NCBI GenBank assembly: GCA_963707955.1 | Contig: OY970176.1 | Location: forward strand, 1,120,001 to 1,184,000 | From: Candidatus Bathyarchaeota archaeon | GTDB taxonomy: Archaea; Thermoproteota; Bathyarchaeia; Bathyarchaeales; Bathycorpusculaceae | Direction: 5' to 3' | DNA: 64,000 nucleotides | In this document: positions 50,375-57,156 of the stretch, piece after piece | Position numbering within the stretch: the first letter of the stretch is position 1 | Layout of the letters: the number at the start of each line of letters is the position of its first letter | Program-made: the position numbers and the translations under genes | Notes under the pieces: model-generated | Told to the model about the DNA's origin: nothing | Database searches by the model: none | The model's input: the letters and a program-made list of their open reading frames with translations, nothing else

Positions 50375-53062
50375 ATGACACAGAAACAACTGGAAGATTT
50401 TCCGTCCAAGGAACACAGACCTTCGACTGGAAAGAAAGTTGACTCTGGGCCATTGGCAATCGGCGAACTCGGAACGAGAGAAGGGAGAAAGCGCGTCTTT
50501 CCCCCGCTTGCTCCTGAGAACTTACCATGCTCATACTTTGTCTCAGCCACCTATGACGGGAGGGCTGGCAAGGCAGTAATCAAACTCTATGAACCAATTT
50601 CGGGCCAGATCTACTTCTGGTATGACAACACAGGCCACCAACCGTACTGTCTCACAAACCTTTCGCAGTACGAGCTTGAAAAAATCAGCCGTGTAATTCA
50701 ACACCCAGGTTTCGACCGTTTTGAGATTGTGGAAAAATTTGACCCGCTGCTAGACAAGAAGGTGAAGGTCACGAAAATAGTGACCAAAGACCCGTTGGCT
50801 ATCGGCGGCCGACCTACGGGATGCATTAGAGACATAATTCCAGAGGATTTCCCAAACGTCTCGGACTCGCCGGTTGCATCGCAAGAAATCAAAGTCTGGG
50901 AGTCAACGATAAAGTACTACCAATCCTACATTTACGACCGGCAACTTCTGCCTGGAATGATGTATGAAATAAGAGACTGCAGCCTCATCCTGAAAAGGCT
51001 GGAAGAAACCGACAAGACCGTGAGTCAGATTCGAGGAACCTTCAAGGACGCCACTGATGAAGAGTTGGAATTCATCGAAGAATGGGCAAGACTGCTGGAA
51101 TACCCTGCTCCCAAGTTTCGCCGCGTGGCCCTCGACATAGAAGTGTTGGCTCCAATCCCTACGAGAGTACCTGACCCCCGGGAAGCGGCTTACCCAATTG
51201 TATGTGTTTCACTCTACAGTTCAGATGGACTGAAGAAAGTCTTGCTCCTGAAACGCGAAGGAGTCCGCGAGGGCACGGAGCACCTGTCCACGGATGTGAG
51301 GCTTGAAAGTTTTGATTCAGAGGAGAAACTACTAAGGTCTGTTCTTGACGCGGTGTGGGACTATCCTTTCGTCCTAACTTTCAACGGGGACGACTTTGAC
51401 CTGCCATATTTGTTCAACCGCGCTCTGAACCTTGGCATCAGACGAAACGAGATCCCTATAGAAGTTGGTAAAAGATCCTGCTCGCTGAGTTACGGAGTTC
51501 ACGTTGACCTGTACAAGTTTTTCTTCAACCGTTCAATTCAGATTTACGCTTTCAACAACCGTTACAAAGACGTGACGCTGAATGACATTGGAAAAGCTCT
51601 GATCGGACTTGAAAAAGTGCCACTTGACAAGACTCTAGGCGAGTTAACTTACACAAAGCTTGCTGAGTATTGCCTCAGAGACTCTGAAATCACTTTCAGG
51701 CTTACAAGTTTTGAAGACGAACTCGTCATGAAGCTGATCCTAGTTCTTGCAAGAATCAGCAGCATGCCAATGGAAGACGTGAGTCGACAAGGCGTCTCTC
51801 GTTGGATAAGAAACTTTCTGCAGCGAGAGCACCGCAGGAGGAACATGCTCATCCCGAGTCCCAACGACATACTGGCAACGAAGGGCAAAACCGCAACGAA
51901 AGCAATCATAAAGGGCAAGAAGTACAAGGGAGCAATAGTCGTCGAGCCTGTGCCAGGAGTGTACTTCAACGTTGCTGTCATGGATTTTCCAAGCCTGTAT
52001 CCATCAATCATCAAGGTGTGGAACCTAGGTTACCAGTCCATATTGTGTCCGCATCCGGAATGCCGCGGCAACGTCGTTCCAGGTACGCCACACTGGGTTT
52101 GTATTAAGAAACGAGCTTTAGAGAGCCTGTTGATCGGTTCGTTGAGAGATTTGCGTGTGCAGTGGTACAAGCCTAAGGCGAAAGACAAGTACCTCAGCGC
52201 AGATTTGAGAAGCTGGTACAACATCACTCAGGGAGCTCTTAAAGTCATCCTGAACGCGAGCTACGGAGTCTTCGGAGCTGAAAGCTTTGACCTCTACTGC
52301 CCACCGGTGGCTGAGGCAACAGCGGCCATCGGAAGACACTCAATAACACAGATACTCAACAAAGCAGAACAGCTGAGCATCCAAGTGCTCTATGGAGACA
52401 CGGACAGCCTCTTTCTGAAAAACCCTTCAAAACAGCAAACTGAAGAACTGGCACGCTGGACAGAACACGAGCTTAAAATGAGCTTGGATGTTGACAAGGT
52501 TTACAGGTACGCCGTTTTCAGCTCTCGCAAAAAGAACTATCTCGGAGTCTTTGAAGATGGGACGGTTGACGTCAAGGGGTTGACTGGCAAGAAGAAACAC
52601 ATTCCAATTCTCATCAAGAAAGCCTTCGACAAAATGAAGGACCGCCTCGCACGGGTCAAGACTCCGACAGATTTTGAAAGAGCAAAGAAGAACATCTGCG
52701 AAATTGTCCGCGAATGCTACATACAATTGAAGAGGCGAGAATGGGAGAACCTCAACGAACTAGCGTTCAACGTGGTCCTAGGCGAAGAAATCGGGCACTA
52801 CACAAAGACAACTCCTCAACACGTCAAAGCCGCAAAGATTCTACAGGAGAATGGAGCTGAGCTGAAAGCCGGGGACCTCATAAGTTTCGTTAAAACGACT
52901 AGGGAACCGCACGTGAAACCAGTTGGGTTGGCGACTAAAAACGAGGTTGATGTTGACAAGTACGTAGCCTACTTGCATTCGACGTTTGACCAAGTCCTAG
53001 ATGCGTTGGGTCTTGACTTTGACGAAATAATAGGACTGACGAAACTGGAGAGATTCATGTAA
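50375..53062 (+). CDS. polB1: Family B DNA polymerase, PolB1 type
   Basis: DIE, FNGDDFD, DFPSLYPS, KVILNASYG, YGDTDS, KKNY; N-terminal YFWYDNTGH.PY. Confidence 0.95.
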   Translation: MTQKQLEDFPSKEHRPSTGKKVDSGPLAIGELGTREGRKRVFPPLAPENLPCSYFVSATYDGRAGKAVIKLYEPISGQIYFWYDNTGHQPYCLTNLSQYELEKISRVIQHPGFDRFEIVEKFDPLLDKKVKVTKIVTKDPLAIGGRPTGCIRDIIPEDFPNVSDSPVASQEIKVWESTIKYYQSYIYDRQLLPGMMYEIRDCSLILKRLEETDKTVSQIRGTFKDATDEELEFIEEWARLLEYPAPKFRRVALDIEVLAPIPTRVPDPREAAYPIVCVSLYSSDGLKKVLLLKREGVREGTEHLSTDVRLESFDSEEKLLRSVLDAVWDYPFVLTFNGDDFDLPYLFNRALNLGIRRNEIPIEVGKRSCSLSYGVHVDLYKFFFNRSIQIYAFNNRYKDVTLNDIGKALIGLEKVPLDKTLGELTYTKLAEYCLRDSEITFRLTSFEDELVMKLILVLARISSMPMEDVSRQGVSRWIRNFLQREHRRRNMLIPSPNDILATKGKTATKAIIKGKKYKGAIVVEPVPGVYFNVAVMDFPSLYPSIIKVWNLGYQSILCPHPECRGNVVPGTPHWVCIKKRALESLLIGSLRDLRVQWYKPKAKDKYLSADLRSWYNITQGALKVILNASYGVFGAESFDLYCPPVAEATAAIGRHSITQILNKAEQLSIQVLYGDTDSLFLKNPSKQQTEELARWTEHELKMSLDVDKVYRYAVFSSRKKNYLGVFEDGTVDVKGLTGKKKHIPILIKKAFDKMKDRLARVKTPTDFERAKKNICEIVRECYIQLKRREWENLNELAFNVVLGEEIGHYTKTTPQHVKAAKILQENGAELKAGDLISFVKTTREPHVKPVGLATKNEVDVDKYVAYLHSTFDQVLDALGLDFDEIIGLTKLERFM

Positions 53063-53075
53063 GGCTTTGCAGTCG

Positions 53076-53630
53076 TTAATTCTCTGAAAGCGTTTTCAAC
53101 CCATGTGATCTTAGGGGTTCAATGATGCTGGGTCTGCTCAGTATTCGCAGAACCGCGTAACCTATGACTGCGATAGCTACTAGACTGCTGACCAAAAGGC
53201 TGATCAGCGTCGTGATCCAAGCTGGCAAGAACGCGAGCTCTGCAGGTTGATAAGGATAGTATATCCACAGATACCCGCCGCCAACGATGATTCCTATGGG
53301 CAAAGCACCTGCGATGCACGCTAGCAACTTATGCTTCTTCAGTAACAATACGAGGCTTGCCGCCACAAGATTGGCTAGGGAACCGAAGACTACGTCAATG
53401 AATCCTATGGGTCCGAAAACATTAACAACAGCGCATCCGGCAGTGACTCCGATAACGACAGGCCATCCTAACAAAGCAGTCAATGCAATCAGAAAGTCTG
53501 AAAGGCGCAATTGTATAGGTCCGTAGATTGAAGGGTTTCCGAAAGGAGAAAACGATTGCGCCACGTTGATCGTGGCGTATAATGCTGCAAAAACGGCTGT
53601 CAACGCCACATCTCTAGTGTCAAATCTTAT
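53076..53630 (-). CDS. queT: QueT-family ECF S component (7-deazaguanine precursor transporter); start probably the ATA at 53630, alternatively GTG at 53681
   Basis: AVFAALYA, YGPIQLRLSD, GCAVVN, DVVFGS; GGAGGTGA SD ends 4 nt before the in-frame ATA. Confidence 0.8.
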   Translation of the reverse strand: MRFDTRDVALTAVFAALYATINVAQSFSPFGNPSIYGPIQLRLSDFLIALTALLGWPVVIGVTAGCAVVNVFGPIGFIDVVFGSLANLVAASLVLLLKKHKLLACIAGALPIGIIVGGGYLWIYYPYQPAELAFLPAWITTLISLLVSSLVAIAVIGYAVLRILSRPSIIEPLRSHGLKTLSEN

Positions 53631-53697
53631 CCTTTCACCTCCTGCGCCGGGATTTCTATGGCGGAACGGGTGGAGGCCCACTCACCCGCCTAGCACC
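53631..53697 (-). ncRNA. Candidate riboswitch-like 5' leader of queT
   Basis: Stem CGGGTG/CACCCG; loop GCCTC complementary to SD GAGGT; hairpin CGCC/GGCG just before the SD; TATA TTTAATAA at about 53716-53723. Confidence 0.5.
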
Positions 53698-53862
53698 TAA
53701 GAAGACGACAGATGTTTATTAAATATTACTGAGACTCGCATACTAGTATTCATCGCACGAGCGTTCAGGATAGAAAATCGGGCGCGAGGCCATCGAGAAG
53801 ACTTCACAAGTAGTCGCCGCGCGCGAAGATCGCATCAAAGTATTTGCTGCAGAAAAAGCCGA

Positions 53863-53930
53863 GAGGGTAGACGTGTTAGACGAGTAAAAACGCGAAACAG
53901 GGAATGTTAACGGATCGATGGAGAAACGCG
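53863..53930 (+). repeat. Dispersed ~65-bp intergenic repeat, copy 2
   Basis: Aligns by eye to 26762-26828. Confidence 0.6.
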
Positions 53931-53985
53931 TAGCAAGAAGTAGCTGTGGGGCATCAATAAGCGCCGTAAAAACACGTTTCAAACA

Positions 53986-54858
53986 CTATTTCGACATTAA
54001 CAATCTGAGAACGAGAGCAACAGAAGTTGAGGTTGCGACTATAAGCGAGATCAGCAACACCACCTGCCGCTCGGTCAAGGAACGATGAAACGTGAGAAGG
54101 GTGATCAAACTCCGCCTGTGATCTGAGGACAGTTTTTTACCATCAAAAGAGACAGCTGCCTTGGCTCTATAGATGAAGAAGGTTAGCAATATCAACGCAG
54201 AATTGAAGATATAGGGCAGAACAGACACTACCATGTCCAGCTTCAAATCTGATATGATCCCGAAAGAAGCCAACGTCATCCCTATGGTGAAAGATCCCGT
54301 GTTGCCAACAAAGATCTTCCCCTCAAAGTTTAGGGCAGCAAGGATAAGCCACGCGGCCAGAGGTCCATAAAGCAACACTCCATTTGACCCTGACATAGCC
54401 ATCAACCCCATCATAATTATCGCCGGACAGACCGTTTCCAAACCGTTCAACCCGCCCAGCTGATTCACCGTATTCGTCACTATAGTGACAAGCACCGGAA
54501 CTATCACAAGGTAGTACCAGACACCGAAGTTGATCGTACCCAACAACGGAATTGCCATATACGTGCGAATATGTATATTATACGCGAACGCGGCAAGAGG
54601 CATTGCAGCAACCAGAGGAAGAAACGCTTTGAAACGCCACTTGAGATCTATCCAGTCATCAAGCAACCCCATGAAGCCACCGAACAACACGCACACGGCC
54701 AGCGTCAAGGGCGGAGAAACCCCGTTTGAGACTTTGACGATGTTTAAAGAGTACAGGAGAAACAAGTACACAACGCTGATCAGAACGTAGAAGATACCGA
54801 GGCCGTTAGGAACCAAAGGCTTGTTTGGTTTGTGCAGGTCAGGAGCCCTAGGAAACAA
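53986..54858 (-). CDS. UDP-GlcNAc:dolichol-phosphate GlcNAc-1-P transferase (MraY/GPT family, AglH-like)
   Basis: DLHKP, GLLDD, NQLGGLNGLE, KIFVGNTGS; directly downstream of aglB. Confidence 0.85.
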   Translation of the reverse strand: MFPRAPDLHKPNKPLVPNGLGIFYVLISVVYLFLLYSLNIVKVSNGVSPPLTLAVCVLFGGFMGLLDDWIDLKWRFKAFLPLVAAMPLAAFAYNIHIRTYMAIPLLGTINFGVWYYLVIVPVLVTIVTNTVNQLGGLNGLETVCPAIIMMGLMAMSGSNGVLLYGPLAAWLILAALNFEGKIFVGNTGSFTIGMTLASFGIISDLKLDMVVSVLPYIFNSALILLTFFIYRAKAAVSFDGKKLSSDHRRSLITLLTFHRSLTERQVVLLISLIVATSTSVALVLRLLMSK

Positions 54859-54870
54859 GGACGTTCCTCT

Positions 54871-57156
54871 TTAAGCATTCGGATAATCCTGGTAATATTT
54901 TTGCCAGTCGATCTTGTAGAGACACACAAGTGGAACAATTCCGCCGTAGTTGCTCTGTGACTCACTGGGCGTCAACGTCTCCCCTGAGAAGAACTCTTCC
55001 TGGAAGTATATGGGCCCATTGGTGCCACCCATGGACGCGGTAACGTTGTCCTGGTCGGGGTCCGTAACGCCGTTGGTGGTACACCAAACGTTTTTGCCCC
55101 AAGCCATAAGCTTATAAATTGTGGTTTGTAACCCAACATCGTTCCACACCCATGCGTTGGTCGTGTTGCTAACTGAACCGAAGGTAGTCTCATTCTGCCA
55201 AGAAGATGCCTTGTCTATAAAGCCGCTGTCTATCAATCGCTGCATTCCGGCTCCGGAGATCTCTGCCATCCAAGTCCATTTTCCGTTGTCGCCGCCCGCC
55301 CAGTTAACCCAGTTTCCATAATAGTCAAAAGTATCAAACACGAGTATGTATTCCGCTCCGTACTGCTTCAACATATTCATCGAATAAGTCTCGTTTGCCA
55401 TAAAAGTGAAACCAACATTTTCTATTTGTGTTTCGTTAATCGTGGCGTTGTCTGAAAGCGTGGTGACATTTCCTAGAATGCTCAGCCAGTATCCATAGTC
55501 CCACCAACTAACGACAATTGTAGAAGAGTTTTGGAAATCATTCAAGTATTTCAGCATGTCAAACCACTCTGTCACAGGCTGATTGGGGCTTATTGACATA
55601 CTGCCTCCGGTGATCGTAAGTGGCTGGTAAGCTTGGCTGTAGACTGTCGGCACACCACCAGATTGCGGCGAAAATGCCAAGTTTGTCACCAAAACTAAGA
55701 ATATTAGGAAAATGGCAACCCCGCTGAACTCTTTTCCTACATGTTCCAAGGCTTTCCTCGTTCCAGTCAATCTCGGCGGTTCCTTCAACAGTGTCACGAA
55801 CGGTTTGGACAGACCCACTATTCCGATAGCTGCCACAAGAGCGAACGCCGGGGCCAAAATGACCATTACACGCACCATGGACGCAGCAAAGTAGACAGAG
55901 CTTAAAGCAAAGAGTAACATGAAAAGATTCTTCGTCGTGAGGTTTCTTGCAATAAAGAATAGACCAACGACGAAGAAGAGTATCGCAATGCCAACGTCGT
56001 AGTAAATTGAAGCCCAAGTAGAAATCCTCTGTTCAGCCACAGACTCTATAAGCGGGTTAACTCCCCGCACGAGTGGATCTATAACAACCAAGAACTTTGC
56101 CCCTATGGCTCCTAAGAAGCCAGCCAGCGTGAGCACGATGAAGCTGCCGATTATCCCGGCCACGAACACTACGACAAACATGAACTTTTCCCTAGCAGAA
56201 ATCAAATTGCTCACGATCTCATTCAGGCAAAGAAGACCAAAGACTCCTGTAGCAGGTAGGACGGCTGTGGAAACTAGGAAACTGGGTCCGACTTCAGTTC
56301 GGGTGCTTATGGCTAGGAGCAAGCCCGGGCCAAAGGTCAAACCGTACACTAGGAAAAGACGTCGCGAGTATCTTTTGAGCAGAAGTAGAACGAAAACGAA
56401 GAGGGCGGCCAGGTCAATCATGTAGTATGATGCGCCCCATCCGAGAATGAAGTACGTTAAGACAGCAGCCGACCCAAGCGAGTAGACAACCGTTGAATTG
56501 ATCGGCCTTTCTTCTTCAACGGCTCTGAGGAAAAAAAGACAGAAAGCCGGAATTGCAAAGATGCCAACGTTTTCGGTCGTAAAGAAGCCGAACGTAATCT
56601 TCGTGATAACGGTTGGGCTTATCGCCAAGATGAGTGCTGCAAGCAAGCCGACAGGCTTTCCCCCTAAGTCTTTTCCGAGGAAGTAGAGCAGAAAGACGCC
56701 AAGCGCAGCCATTAATGGAGGGATAAACGCAAGAAAGGTCATCAAGTCAACGTTGAAGCCCAGGAACCTAACGATGTCGTAGGAAAGAGCTCCAACAAAT
56801 ACCAATGCTGGATAGGAGCCCCCCAAGTCTATTCCGCCTGGGTACCATTCCTGCGTGTCAACCCAATGCGTAGGCCAAAAGGGTGACAGCAAGCCTTGCT
56901 GTGTCATTCGTTGCACCAGATTGTACTGGTAGTACGGGTCAAATTCATTAAGATGGATTGCGCCCACCTGTATCTCCCAGCGCAGTGGCAGTATGCGTAT
57001 GGTGAATGCCAAGAAAACGCAGAGCACCAAGGCTGAAACCGTAAGGACTGAACTGTGGTTCACTTTGGGTCTTAGTTTTCCCAGACTCTTTATGCCGTTG
57101 ACAAAACTTTCCTTGGATAGGACGCTGCGGAGCTTCACTTTAGGTTCATCTCTCAC
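54871..57156 (-). CDS. aglB: Oligosaccharyltransferase AglB/STT3
   Basis: EFDPYY, SVAEQ, WWDYG, DNAT, DNGKWTWM; about 13 TMs. Confidence 0.95.
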   Translation of the reverse strand: MRDEPKVKLRSVLSKESFVNGIKSLGKLRPKVNHSSVLTVSALVLCVFLAFTIRILPLRWEIQVGAIHLNEFDPYYQYNLVQRMTQQGLLSPFWPTHWVDTQEWYPGGIDLGGSYPALVFVGALSYDIVRFLGFNVDLMTFLAFIPPLMAALGVFLLYFLGKDLGGKPVGLLAALILAISPTVITKITFGFFTTENVGIFAIPAFCLFFLRAVEEERPINSTVVYSLGSAAVLTYFILGWGASYYMIDLAALFVFVLLLLKRYSRRLFLVYGLTFGPGLLLAISTRTEVGPSFLVSTAVLPATGVFGLLCLNEIVSNLISAREKFMFVVVFVAGIIGSFIVLTLAGFLGAIGAKFLVVIDPLVRGVNPLIESVAEQRISTWASIYYDVGIAILFFVVGLFFIARNLTTKNLFMLLFALSSVYFAASMVRVMVILAPAFALVAAIGIVGLSKPFVTLLKEPPRLTGTRKALEHVGKEFSGVAIFLIFLVLVTNLAFSPQSGGVPTVYSQAYQPLTITGGSMSISPNQPVTEWFDMLKYLNDFQNSSTIVVSWWDYGYWLSILGNVTTLSDNATINETQIENVGFTFMANETYSMNMLKQYGAEYILVFDTFDYYGNWVNWAGGDNGKWTWMAEISGAGMQRLIDSGFIDKASSWQNETTFGSVSNTTNAWVWNDVGLQTTIYKLMAWGKNVWCTTNGVTDPDQDNVTASMGGTNGPIYFQEEFFSGETLTPSESQSNYGGIVPLVCLYKIDWQKYYQDYPNA

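What the first reader, a model, noticed from the sequence alone, without database searches (positions are those of the whole stretch)
53628..53723. Candidate archaeal riboswitch upstream of queT with preQ1-II-like pseudoknot topology
Seen (minus strand): TATA TTTAATAA, then a ~66-nt GC-rich leader GGTGCTAGG-CGGGTG-AGTGGGCCTC-CACCCG-TTC-CGCC-ATAGAAATCCC-GGCG-CA-GGAGGTGA-AAGG-start. A 6-8 bp stem has a loop (GCCTC) complementary to the SD (GAGGT), and a second hairpin ends 2 nt before the SD. A competing GGCGG/CCGCC helix is also possible. Established: bacterial preQ1-II riboswitches control queT-type genes with this stem / extra hairpin / SD-pseudoknot arrangement, and archaea use preQ0 for archaeosine. 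Inference: a preQ0/preQ1-sensing translational switch in an archaeon. The primary sequence does not match bacterial consensus by eye, and I know of no described archaeal example.
Basis: partly seen in the sequence, partly recalled or inferred. Interest (0 to 1): 0.75.

Follow-up and report, generated by a model that had tools for sequence, protein, structure and literature searches.

The report
New archaeal riboswitch candidate before queT
A 60-base RNA leader in front of a transporter gene for a tRNA-modification precursor is almost unchanged across several classes of archaea and can fold to hide the ribosome-binding site, so it is probably a new metabolite-sensing switch of a kind rarely seen in archaea.

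Summary
The same ~60-nt leader was collected 215 times (199 distinct) in Bathyarchaeia, Nitrososphaeria-type, Methanomethylicota and unclassified archaea. The first gene behind it is QueT in 203, QueE in 4 and a QueT-like membrane protein in 3 (5 too short to tell). QueC follows on the same strand in 55.

Comparative data re-assign the helices. A short hairpin P2 (GUGG/CCAC) also covaries. The loop-to-Shine-Dalgarno pairing is confirmed and extended into helix P3: at least 5 contiguous bp in 199 of 199 sequences, 74 distinct helices. P3 overlaps the 3' strand of P2, so the two exclude each other.

No Rfam family matches, including preQ1-I, -II and -III. No paper found describes it.

Best reading: a new, archaeal class of translational OFF riboswitch for a 7-deazaguanine, most likely preQ0. 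It would form an H-type pseudoknot (P1 + A-rich tail + P3) that buries the SD. Ligand binding is untested.

The parts
53716..53723 (-). TATA-box-like TTTAATAA; 25-26 nt lie between it and the first base of P1, so the transcript should start at or just before P1
   Evidence: Read. A strict TATA-like 7-mer was found upstream of 80 of 198 leaders, and 75 of those 80 lie 21-29 nt before P1. The start site is inferred, not mapped.
53685..53690 (-). P1 5' strand GGCGGG
   Evidence: Pairs with 53660-53665. Terminal pair covaries (G-C 162, U-A 10, G-U 10, A-U 8, C-G 4, unpaired 5 of 199); the other five pairs are invariant.
53682..53684 (-). J1, UGA, conserved unpaired junction
   Evidence: UGA 162, UAG 25, UAA 7, UGG 5 of 199.
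53678..53681 (-). P2 5' strand GUGG (competitor of the SD for the anti-SD strand)
   Evidence: Pairs 1-3 are paired in 192-193 of 194; pair 2 occurs as U-A 182, C-G 6, G-C 3, U-G 1. RNAalifold predicts it.
53672..53677 (-). anti-SD GCCUCC: loop of P2 (53677-74) plus the first two bases of the P2 3' strand
   Evidence: Complementary to GGAGGU 53642-37. At least 5 contiguous bp in 199/199 relatives; 74 distinct helices with changes on both strands.
53670..53673 (-). P2 3' strand CCAC (overlaps the anti-SD by two bases)
   Evidence: The overlap makes P2 and P3 mutually exclusive, which the sequence shows directly.
53666..53669 (-). J2, CCGU; its CC can pair with GG 53648-47 (P3a)
   Evidence: CCCGUU 169, CCCGAU 15, UCCGUU 12 of 199. 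Where the base before CC is U, the third linker base is A or G in 12 of 13. This is weak support only.
53660..53665 (-). P1 3' strand UCCGCC
53649..53659 (-). third loop: A-rich tail AUAGAAAU plus C-run CCC, 11 nt
   Evidence: The length from P1 to the end of the C-run is 11 nt in 118 of 199 and never under 10. AAA and the C-run are nearly invariant. No pairing partner was found for the C-run.
53643..53648 (-). GG plus variable linker CGCA
   Evidence: GG follows the C-run in 194 of 199.
53635..53642 (-). Shine-Dalgarno GGAGGUGA, 3' strand of P3
   Evidence: The spacing from the SD to an in-frame start peaks at 7-8 nt in relatives.
53628..53630 (-). probable start codon, ATA (non-canonical), 7 nt after GGAGG
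   Evidence: Relatives have ATG, GTG or TTG at the aligned codon. The Pfam QueT match begins 8 codons later. GTG 53681 lies inside the leader. This is an inference.
53076..53627 (-). queT coding sequence (ECF-type S component for queuosine/archaeosine precursors)
   Evidence: PF06177 QueT, E 2.4e-24, 86.7 bits against a cut-off of 33.7.

Best explanation
The 5' untranslated leader of queT (about 53692-53631, minus strand) is one member of a widespread and, as far as my searches reach, undescribed class of archaeal cis-regulatory RNA. It is most likely a riboswitch for a free 7-deazaguanine, with preQ0 the best candidate.

Shown:
- An invariant closing stem P1 (GGCGGG:UCCGCC).
- Two mutually exclusive helices that use the same strand, CCUCCAC. 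One is a short hairpin P2 (GUGG:CCAC). The other is a long-range helix P3, in which the P2 loop plus part of its 3' strand pairs with the Shine-Dalgarno sequence.

Inferred:
- With P1 and P3 formed, the RNA is an H-type pseudoknot. Its third loop is the conserved 11-nt A-rich tail plus C-run.
- The ligand binds at the P1/P3 junction, formed by the conserved J1 UGA, J2 CCGU and the C-run, and stabilises P3. The SD is then buried and translation of queT is shut off. In other lineages the same would shut off queT-queC or queE-queC.
- Without ligand, P2 captures the anti-SD strand and the SD is free.
For: (1) Conservation.
- 28 of 30 QueT loci from relatives carry the motif directly upstream. The other two carry it about 1.2 kb upstream, before a queT-queC-queT row.
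- The core is 89% identical while the proteins are 41-63% identical.
- There are 28 invariant columns in 28 sequences found through the protein alone.

(2) Structure.
- P1+P2 are paired in 99.8% of 647 cells, and 15 cells carry changes on both sides (0/500 shuffles reach this).
- The P1 terminal pair has 5 pair types and P2 pair 2 has 3 Watson-Crick types.
- G-U pairs, including one invariant in P1, fit this strand only.

(3) P3.
- At least 5 contiguous bp in 199/199 sequences. Mean length is 6.45 against 6.01 for swapped partners (maximum 6.17 in 200 permutations).
- Duplex energy is -14.59 against -13.41 kcal/mol, with 0/5000 permutations as low.
- Changes occur on both strands, for example UUCCGA:UCGGAA, UCAUCUCC:GGAGAUGA, CUUCCUAC:GUAGGGAG, CUCCCA:UGGGAG, UCCUCC:GGAGGA.

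(4) Gene association.
- The first gene is QueT in 203, QueE in 4 and a QueT-like protein in 3; 5 of the 215 are too short to tell.
- QueC lies directly behind on the same strand in 55.

(5) Specificity. The covariance model finds only 2 places in the 2.35-Mb genome at E<=1, both directly before QueT genes.

(6) Non-coding. Leader length mod 3 is 52/56/56, and 123 of 164 leaders have an in-frame stop.

(7) Position. The leader lies 21-29 nt after a TATA-like box where one is recognisable.

(8) Balance. In the window P2 adds about -6.9 kcal/mol to P1, and the P3 duplex is about -8 to -11. The two are close enough for a ligand to tip (rough).
Against: - No binding, probing or expression experiment exists, so the ligand and the direction of the switch are inferred from gene context and from analogy with bacterial preQ1 switches.
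- The single-sequence fold is no better than shuffles (z 0.00).
- Only 2 of the 10 P1/P2 pairs vary on both sides. By number of such pairs the structure is not exceptional (132/500 shuffles reach it), nor by number of pair types (48/500). Five P1 pairs never vary and so say nothing.
- 159 of the 215 instances were fetched with DNA patterns that fix most P1, J1 and J2 letters and the 5' strand of P2, so invariance there is partly by construction. The sequences are related, so permutation figures overstate significance.
- P2 has exceptions, listed: L201 C-A, L237 and L093 G-G, and pair 4 is A-C in 13.
- L093 has a poor P3.
- In L182/L183, and perhaps L179/L181, the element lies 35-150 nt before the QueT domain, so SD burial cannot be the whole story there.
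- No partner or role was found for the conserved C-run.
- The window's own genome has queC-queE without the motif.
Confidence: 0.6

Rival explanations
1. It is a riboswitch of this architecture, but the ligand is not preQ0. It could be another purine-like compound of the pathway or its surroundings: 7-carboxy-7-deazaguanine (the QueC substrate), preQ1 or queuine taken up from bacteria, the archaeosine base, or guanine.
For: 55 instances are motif-transporter-queC rows. This would fit uptake of the QueC substrate rather than of preQ0. Bacterial preQ1 aptamers bind preQ1 more tightly than preQ0, and preQ0 more tightly than guanine (passages of PMC11625349), so related ligands are plausible for such pockets.
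Against: An end product is the usual effector, and preQ0 is the last free base before tRNA insertion in archaea (established pathway knowledge; PMC5372724 passages). queE-queC operons are also under the motif, which fits feedback by their joint product.
Confidence: 0.15
2. The leader is the binding site of a trans-acting protein that represses translation, for example a pathway enzyme such as the archaeosine tRNA-guanine transglycosylase, or an unknown regulator. No small molecule touches the RNA.
For: Nothing here distinguishes RNA-ligand from RNA-protein recognition. Riboswitches are rare in archaea (PMC5473149 passages). The genome encodes arcTGT (575 bits).
Against: No candidate gene travels with the motif other than the regulated genes. 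The two competing helices, the invariant junctions and the A-rich third loop are the usual anatomy of small pseudoknot riboswitches. The element is the same across at least three archaeal classes with very different gene neighbourhoods.
Confidence: 0.12
3. It is a constitutive structured leader with no specific effector. It sets a low translation rate or mRNA stability, or acts as a thermometer.
For: SD-anti-SD pairing alone can throttle translation. The window's start codon is weak (ATA), which also lowers output.
Against: This would not explain about 20 invariant unpaired bases kept across classes, or selection for both of two exclusive helices. It would not explain restriction to one metabolic pathway in 210 of 210 assessable cases.
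Confidence: 0.05
4. The region is coding: QueT starts at GTG 53681 and the conserved stretch is an N-terminal extension or a leader peptide.
For: In the window the frame is open from GTG 53681 (201-aa ORF).
Against: Leader length mod 3 is 52/56/56, and 123 of 164 leaders have an in-frame stop. Insertions of 1-6 nt occur in the P2 loop and the tail. Relatives have ATG, GTG or TTG with a proper SD at the aligned codon 53630. The Pfam match begins at residue 26 of that ORF.
Confidence: 0.01

Closest known systems
preQ1-I riboswitch (Rfam RF00522; H-type pseudoknot, types I-III)
   Same: - A short closing stem, followed by an A-rich 3' tail that runs back along it, then a second helix made by the 3' end with the loop of the first.
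- The second helix contains SD bases in the translational members (passages of PMC11625349).
- It controls queT, yhhQ and que biosynthesis genes.
- This is the best functional and topological analogue.
   Different: - No sequence or covariance-model similarity.
- About twice as long.
- The second helix is 5-9+ bp and covers the whole SD.
- The loop holds a competing hairpin (P2) that has no counterpart.
- A conserved C-run ends the tail.
- It is found in archaea, whereas every example named in the passages read from that review is bacterial, and the review never uses the word archaea.
preQ1-II riboswitch (RF01054, COG4708/queT motif of Lactobacillales; HLout pseudoknot)
   Same: It lies before queT and gives full SD occlusion in a pseudoknot helix.
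   Different: - No model match.
- The tail is A-rich rather than the U-rich strand that forms the U-A-U triples described for class II.
preQ1-III riboswitch (RF02680)
   Same: The anti-SD sits in the loop of an internal hairpin, and the SD at the 3' end docks onto it (helix P5).
   Different: - Class III is about 100 nt, with five helices and a separate HLout aptamer.
- Here the SD helix invades the hairpin stem and competes with it.
- No model match.
Riboswitch classes already known in archaea (TPP, fluoride; a few FMN, Mg2+-I and guanidine-II examples)
   Same: These are cis-acting metabolite or ion sensors in archaeal 5' leaders (passages of PMC5473149).
   Different: They are bacterial classes that also occur in archaea. 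This motif was found only in archaeal records among the hits I could name: 39 of 39 true hits carry archaeal titles.

Membership tests
preQ1-I (RF00522) | Scores against the family's covariance model | tested here: not met
   No Rfam match at E<=10 in window 53400-54000 or at E<=1 in 8 diverse loci.
preQ1-I (RF00522) | H-type pseudoknot: P1, an A-rich tail as third loop, and a 3' end that pairs with the P1 loop | tested here: met
   P1 and P3 are supported by covariation. The tail is A-rich, with a modal length of 11 nt. This is a likeness of topology only; the tertiary contacts are unknown.
preQ1-II (RF01054) | Scores against the family's covariance model | tested here: not met
   no match.
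preQ1-II (RF01054) | Extra hairpin (P4) between the first stem and the SD strand | tested here: not met
preQ1-II (RF01054) | SD fully inside a pseudoknot helix, upstream of queT | tested here: met
   P3 covers GGAGG in 199/199 sequences. QueT is the first gene in 203 of 215.
preQ1-III (RF02680) | Scores against the family's covariance model; ~100 nt with five helices | tested here: not met
   no match. The motif is about 60 nt with three helices.
Riboswitch (general) | Conserved structured element in the 5' leader, with covariation | tested here: met
Riboswitch (general) | Association with genes of one pathway across distant lineages and different gene families | tested here: met
   QueT 203, QueE 4, QueT-like 3 of 215; QueC next in 55. 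Found in Bathyarchaeia, Nitrososphaeria-type, Methanomethylicota and unclassified archaeal records.
Riboswitch (general) | Alternative, mutually exclusive structures linking the sensor to the expression signal | tested here: met
   P2 and P3 share the strand CCUCCAC, and both are supported.
Riboswitch (general) | Direct, selective binding of a small molecule that changes expression | not testable with these tools
   This needs in-line probing or ITC and reporter or toeprint assays.

The most novel reading that the evidence does not exclude
This is the first riboswitch class that is native to and confined to archaea. It would be a fourth, structurally independent RNA solution for sensing 7-deazaguanines, tuned to preQ0 (the archaeosine precursor) rather than preQ1. 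It would be old enough to be shared by Bathyarchaeia, Nitrososphaeria and Methanomethylicia, and it would govern both salvage (queT) and synthesis (queE, queC).
Probability: 0.5. Interest if true: 0.88.

Novelty: new variant of a known kind. Interest (0 to 1): 0.82.

Why it matters
Archaea are thought to use very few riboswitches, all of them borrowed from classes defined in bacteria (PMC5473149, passages read). A class that is abundant in Thermoproteota and absent from Rfam would change that picture. It would also show that SD sequestration by a metabolite-stabilised pseudoknot works on archaeal ribosomes.

It would give a handle on how archaea balance making and scavenging the archaeosine precursor. 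It would also mark unstudied transporters as belonging to that pathway: the two QueT subtypes and the 277-aa QueT-like family.

The RNA is only about 60 nt long and about 200 natural variants are already in hand. The hypothesis is therefore directly testable by standard in-vitro methods and attractive for structure determination.

Tried and rejected
- **Single-sequence folding.** MFE -29.3 kcal/mol against a shuffle mean of -29.29 (z 0.00), so it has no discriminating power. The MFE also pairs the SD region with coding sequence that is not conserved.
- **RNAalifold's third hairpin.** It pairs the C-run with GG-GG of the SD. I rejected it as the main sequestrator: it needs a bulged A and breaks in the CCAC variants.
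The 6-bp stem and the second hairpin show no covariation.
- **Partners for the conserved C-run.** I tried the 5' strand of P2 (GGG), CGGG of P1 and CCG of J2. None is consistent across the variants seen by eye. L047 fits GUGA:UCAC, but L093, L111, L017 and L020 do not. It is left unexplained.
- **P3a (GG with CC of J2).** Both sides are nearly invariant, so there is only the weak association.
- **tRNA-like or arcTGT decoy idea.** A resemblance of AGUGG to a D-loop is recalled from memory only. It was not tested or pursued.
- **Expression.**
  - One RNA-library contig (run X20, 645 nt, 40 differences) lies on 53036-53680. It covers queT plus the leader up to P2.
  - It comes from a relative, is a contig, and could be DNA carry-over. 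I use it neither for a start site nor as proof of transcription.
  - Parts without cover prove nothing.
  - DNA contigs break inside 53647-53691, and depth there rises to 213-431 against about 11. The conserved core is shared by many organisms in those samples, so I read this as an assembly effect and not as a finding about this genome.
- **Supplements.** These were closed and not consulted. Supplementary motif lists of riboswitch-discovery papers could hold this motif without my seeing it.
- **Literature.** No paper on an archaeal queT, queE or preQ0 leader was found. The library lacks most subscription journals.
  - Seen as passages: PMC5372724, PMC5473149, PMC11625349.
  - All other papers were seen as search listings only.
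- **Limits of the distribution claim.**
  - 81 of the 120 genome hits were chance matches in GC-rich bacteria. They have no A-rich tail, C-run or SD and were dropped.
  - L026 (broken queT, degenerate motif) was left out of all counts of distinct sequences and out of A2.
  - L062 and L252 lie at contig ends and could not be parsed.
  - L186 (E 0.0039, 21.7 bits, unrelated gene) was dropped as a false hit.
  - The five sequences with J1 = UGG were left out of the P2 count.
Full report
**What is in the window.** All of the following lies on the minus strand.
- TATA-like box TTTAATAA, 53723-53716.
- GGCGGG (53690-85), UGA, GUGG (53681-78), GCCU, CCAC (53673-70), CCGU, UCCGCC (53665-60).
- AUAGAAAU, CCC (53651-49), GG, CGCA, GGAGGUGA (53642-35), AAGG, ATA (53630-28).

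Then comes a frame that Pfam calls QueT (PF06177, E 2.4e-24, residues 26-182 of the ORF counted from GTG 53681). The neighbours are a family-B DNA polymerase (50375-53062, +), a GT4 glycosyltransferase (53986-54858, -) and an STT3/AglB homologue (54871-57156, -). Rfam has nothing on 53400-54000 on either strand, even at E<=10. Folded on its own, the 101-nt leader is no more stable than its shuffles (z 0.00).

**Conservation.**
- I searched the window's QueT in 61 related genomes; 52 have a match.
- Of the 30 best loci, 28 carry the same leader directly upstream of the gene.
- In the other two (L024, L028) the matched QueT follows a QueC gene. The leader sits about 1.2 kb upstream, before a first, shorter QueT. 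The order there is motif-queT-queC-queT, with QueT 74.6 bits, QueC 209.5 bits and QueT 94 bits in L024.
- In these protein-selected sequences 28 alignment columns are invariant (A1, 28 sequences).
- The core from P1 to the GG is 89% identical to the window's (minimum 83%) in 24 loci whose proteins are 41-63% identical. The 39 nt upstream are 60% identical and the first 45 coding bases 69%.
- One locus with a frameshifted queT (L026) has a degraded copy.

**More copies.**
  - 39 have the full anatomy (A-rich tail, C-run, SD, gene), and all 39 carry archaeal titles: 30 Bathyarchaeia/Bathyarchaeota, 6 Nitrososphaerales/Nitrososphaerota/Nitrososphaeria/Thaumarchaeota, 1 Methanomethylicota and 2 'archaeon'.
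  - The other 81 are bare chance matches in GC-rich bacteria.
- A covariance model built from 65 sequences (R1) gave these results.
  - Two places in the window's 2.35-Mb genome at E<=1. One is the window copy (79 bits). The other is at 820429-820485 (51.4 bits), directly before a second QueT paralogue (92.2 bits).
  - Matches in 28 of 151 genomes sampled across the phylum.
  - Matches in 22 of the 62 genomes of another class of that phylum.
- A stricter pattern over metagenome contigs again filled its 120 rows. All 120 show the full anatomy, although one is cut by a contig end.
- Together this makes 215 instances and 199 distinct sequences.
- Eight diverse loci gave no Rfam match at E<=1.

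**Helices.**
  - Its inner five pairs never vary.
  - Its terminal pair occurs as G-C 162, U-A 10, G-U 10, A-U 8, C-G 4 and not paired 5, of 199.
- *P2* (GUGG:CCAC) is paired in 192-193 of 194 at its first three pairs. The second pair occurs as U-A 182, C-G 6, G-C 3, U-G 1.
- *P1+P2 on alignment A2*
  - They are paired in 99.8% of cells, against 49-67% when the partner is slid.
  - 15 cells are changed on both sides, and 0/500 shuffles reach this.
  - The count of covarying pairs (2 of 10) and the count of pair types are not exceptional (132/500 and 48/500).
Its last pair fails in 14 of 65, namely in the sequences whose J1 reads UAG or UAA. It is also incompatible with P1.
- Most of P1, J1, J2 and the 5' strand of P2 were fixed by my search patterns in 159 of the 215 instances. 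The 56 instances found through the protein or the model show the same invariance.

**The SD helix (P3).**
- The loop of P2, together with the first bases of its 3' strand, is complementary to the SD in every sequence. All 199 have at least 5 contiguous pairs (5 bp in 30, 6 in 80, 7 in 62, 8 in 23, 9 in 4), and there are 74 distinct helices.
- When the partner strands are swapped among sequences, the mean length falls from 6.45 to 6.01 (maximum 6.17 in 200 permutations). The duplex energy rises from -14.59 to -13.41 kcal/mol, and 0/5000 permutations are as low. The first set of 89 sequences gave -14.55 against -13.25.
- These figures ignore relatedness. The individual cases are clearer:
  - GCCUCC:GGAGGU in the window;
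  - UCCUCC:GGAGGA;
  - GCCUCCG:CGGAGGC;
  - CCUCCC:GGGAGG, a length change on both sides;
  - CUCCCA:UGGGAG;
  - UCACCUCC:GGAGGUGA;
  - UCAUCUCC:GGAGAUGA;
  - CUUCCUAC:GUAGGGAG;
  - UUCCGA:UCGGAA.
- P3 uses two to all four bases of the P2 3' strand, so P2 and P3 cannot coexist.
- Rough energies for the window: P1 -9.2, P1+P2 -16.1, and P3 about -8 as a lone long-range hairpin or -11.3 as a duplex. The two states are close.

**What remains conserved and unpaired.**
- J1 (UGA 162, UAG 25, UAA 7, UGG 5).
- J2 (CCGU or CCGA).
- The tail, whose length from P1 to the end of the C-run is 11 nt in 118 of 199 and never less than 10.
- The C-run (CCCC 147, CCC 47, CAC 5).
- The following GG (194 of 199).

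With P1 and P3 formed, the RNA is an H-type pseudoknot. Loop 1 is J1 plus the freed GUGG, loop 2 is one or two bases of J2, and loop 3 is the A-rich tail with the C-run. The conserved junction bases then surround the P1/P3 junction. In the bacterial preQ1-I pseudoknots the ligand sits at this junction and an A-rich tail lines the first stem (passages of PMC11625349). That the ligand binds there in this RNA is inference.

**Not coding; promoter position.**
- The distance from P1 to a canonical start is 50-75 nt (median 63). Its remainders mod 3 are 52/56/56, and 123 of 164 leaders have an in-frame stop.
- The start codon lies mostly 7-8 nt after GGAGG (55 and 34 cases).
- In the window, and in about 20 other sequences listed, the codon at that place is ATA, ACG, CTG or ATT.
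- A strict TATA-like 7-mer was recognised in 80 of 198 upstream regions and lies 21-29 nt before P1 in 75 of them. In the window the gap is 26 nt.

**Genes under the motif.**
- By tblastn, the first gene is QueT in 203 of 215, QueE in 4 (L069, L087, L195, L213), and a 277-aa membrane protein family in 3 (L143, L230, L291). Five loci are too short to tell.
  - The two QueE proteins scanned (L069, L087) carry Pfam Radical_SAM. Their best NCBIfam hits are the QueE families at 90-108 bits, below the curated cut-offs of 200-300. L195 and L213 were assigned by tblastn alone.
  - L143, the one member of the 277-aa family scanned, has no Pfam or NCBIfam hit, and its similarity to the QueT N-terminus is weak (E 7e-4).
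- QueC follows on the same strand, directly after the first gene, in 55 of 215; 143 have at least 1500 nt to look at. Pfam confirms QueC in L087 (119.7 bits) and L024 (209.5 bits).
- The element therefore governs salvage (queT) and synthesis (queE-queC, queT-queC) of the same compound family in at least three classes.
- The window's genome has queC (179.9 bits) next to a QueE homologue (116.5 bits, below cut-off), and an archaeosine tRNA-guanine transglycosylase (575 bits). It makes and uses preQ0. Only its two QueT genes carry the motif.

**Mechanism and ligand.**
- In archaea, preQ0 is the last free base of the pathway before insertion into tRNA (established knowledge; PMC5372724 passages). 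It is the joint product of the regulated enzymes and the presumed cargo of QueT.
- An OFF switch in which preQ0 stabilises P1+P3 and buries the SD explains all the gene contexts. It also mirrors the three bacterial preQ1 classes.
- The many transporter-queC rows leave room for 7-carboxy-7-deazaguanine as cargo or effector.
- A protein effector cannot be excluded.
- In a few lineages (L182/L183, perhaps L179/L181) the element lies 35-150 nt before the QueT domain. There P3 pairs with a G-rich stretch that is not an obvious SD of that gene. This is unexplained.

**Known or new.**
- No Rfam family matches.
- Nine literature searches found no description.
- The 2024 review of the preQ1 family never uses the word archaea, and every example named in the passages I read is bacterial.
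- The 2017 census lists only TPP, fluoride and a few FMN, Mg2+-I and guanidine-II examples in archaea.
- Supplements and subscription journals were not visible to me.
- I therefore class the element as a new structural class within a known kind of regulator. It works like preQ1-I (H-type, A-rich tail, SD in the second helix) and, in its loop-SD docking, like preQ1-III. It is a member of neither.

**Verdict.** I take it as near certain that this is a real, conserved, structured cis-regulatory RNA tied to 7-deazaguanine metabolism. I put the chance that it is a small-molecule riboswitch at about 0.75. I put the chance that it is an OFF switch for preQ0 working as described at about 0.6.

Noticed in passing
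window 53628-53630 (-); also L017, L019, L027, L030, L141, L170, L201, L216, L243, L258, L268, L288, L301: At the SD-proper distance the queT start codon is non-canonical in the window (ATA). In about 20 relatives it is ACG, CTG, ATT or ATA, where most have ATG, GTG or TTG. Near-cognate initiation seems tolerated, or is used to lower output.
   Followed up: partly
G000:C1:820429-820485 (-), outside the window (locus L152 1501-1557): There is a second, more divergent copy of the motif (51.4 bits; P1 A-U terminal pair, shortened J1 and J2). It lies directly before a second QueT paralogue (36% identical to the window's; PF06177 92.2 bits).
   Followed up: partly
L143 5727-6557 (-); L230; L291: A 277-aa membrane protein family sits behind the motif in the place of QueT. 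L143, the one member scanned, has no Pfam or NCBIfam match, and its likeness to the QueT N-terminus is faint (E 7e-4). It is followed by queC in L143 and L291. It may be an undescribed 7-deazaguanine transporter.
   Followed up: partly
L024 278-2028 (+); L072; 55 loci in all: Operons in the order motif-queT(short, ~160 aa)-queC, sometimes followed by a second queT, are common. Pairing a transporter with QueC suggests uptake of the QueC substrate (7-carboxy-7-deazaguanine) rather than of preQ0. L277 has a 387-401-aa frame that may be a QueT-QueC fusion.
   Followed up: partly
L026 (G027:C2:89416-92754): The queT gene is split by a frameshift, and its leader has lost P2 pairing (GUGAACCUCCAACC). 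Gene and motif appear to decay together.
   Followed up: no
window 53647-53691: In four public metagenome assemblies the contigs break inside the motif, and word depth rises from about 11 to 50-431. The core is shared by many co-occurring organisms, so it is a hazard for assembly and binning around queT.
   Followed up: no
L182 339-399, L183 1501-1562, L179 244-298, L181 1501-1555: In two GC-richer lineages the motif lies 35-150 nt before the QueT domain. The frame stays open as a long N-terminal extension, and P3 pairs with GGUGG or UCGGAA next to an ATG rather than with a standard SD. The mode of control may differ there.
   Followed up: no
window 53986-57156 (-): Upstream of the queT promoter lie a GT4 glycosyltransferase (PF00953) and a 761-aa STT3/AglB oligosaccharyltransferase homologue (PF02516, 112 bits). 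This looks like an N-glycosylation gene pair and is unrelated to the finding.
   Followed up: no
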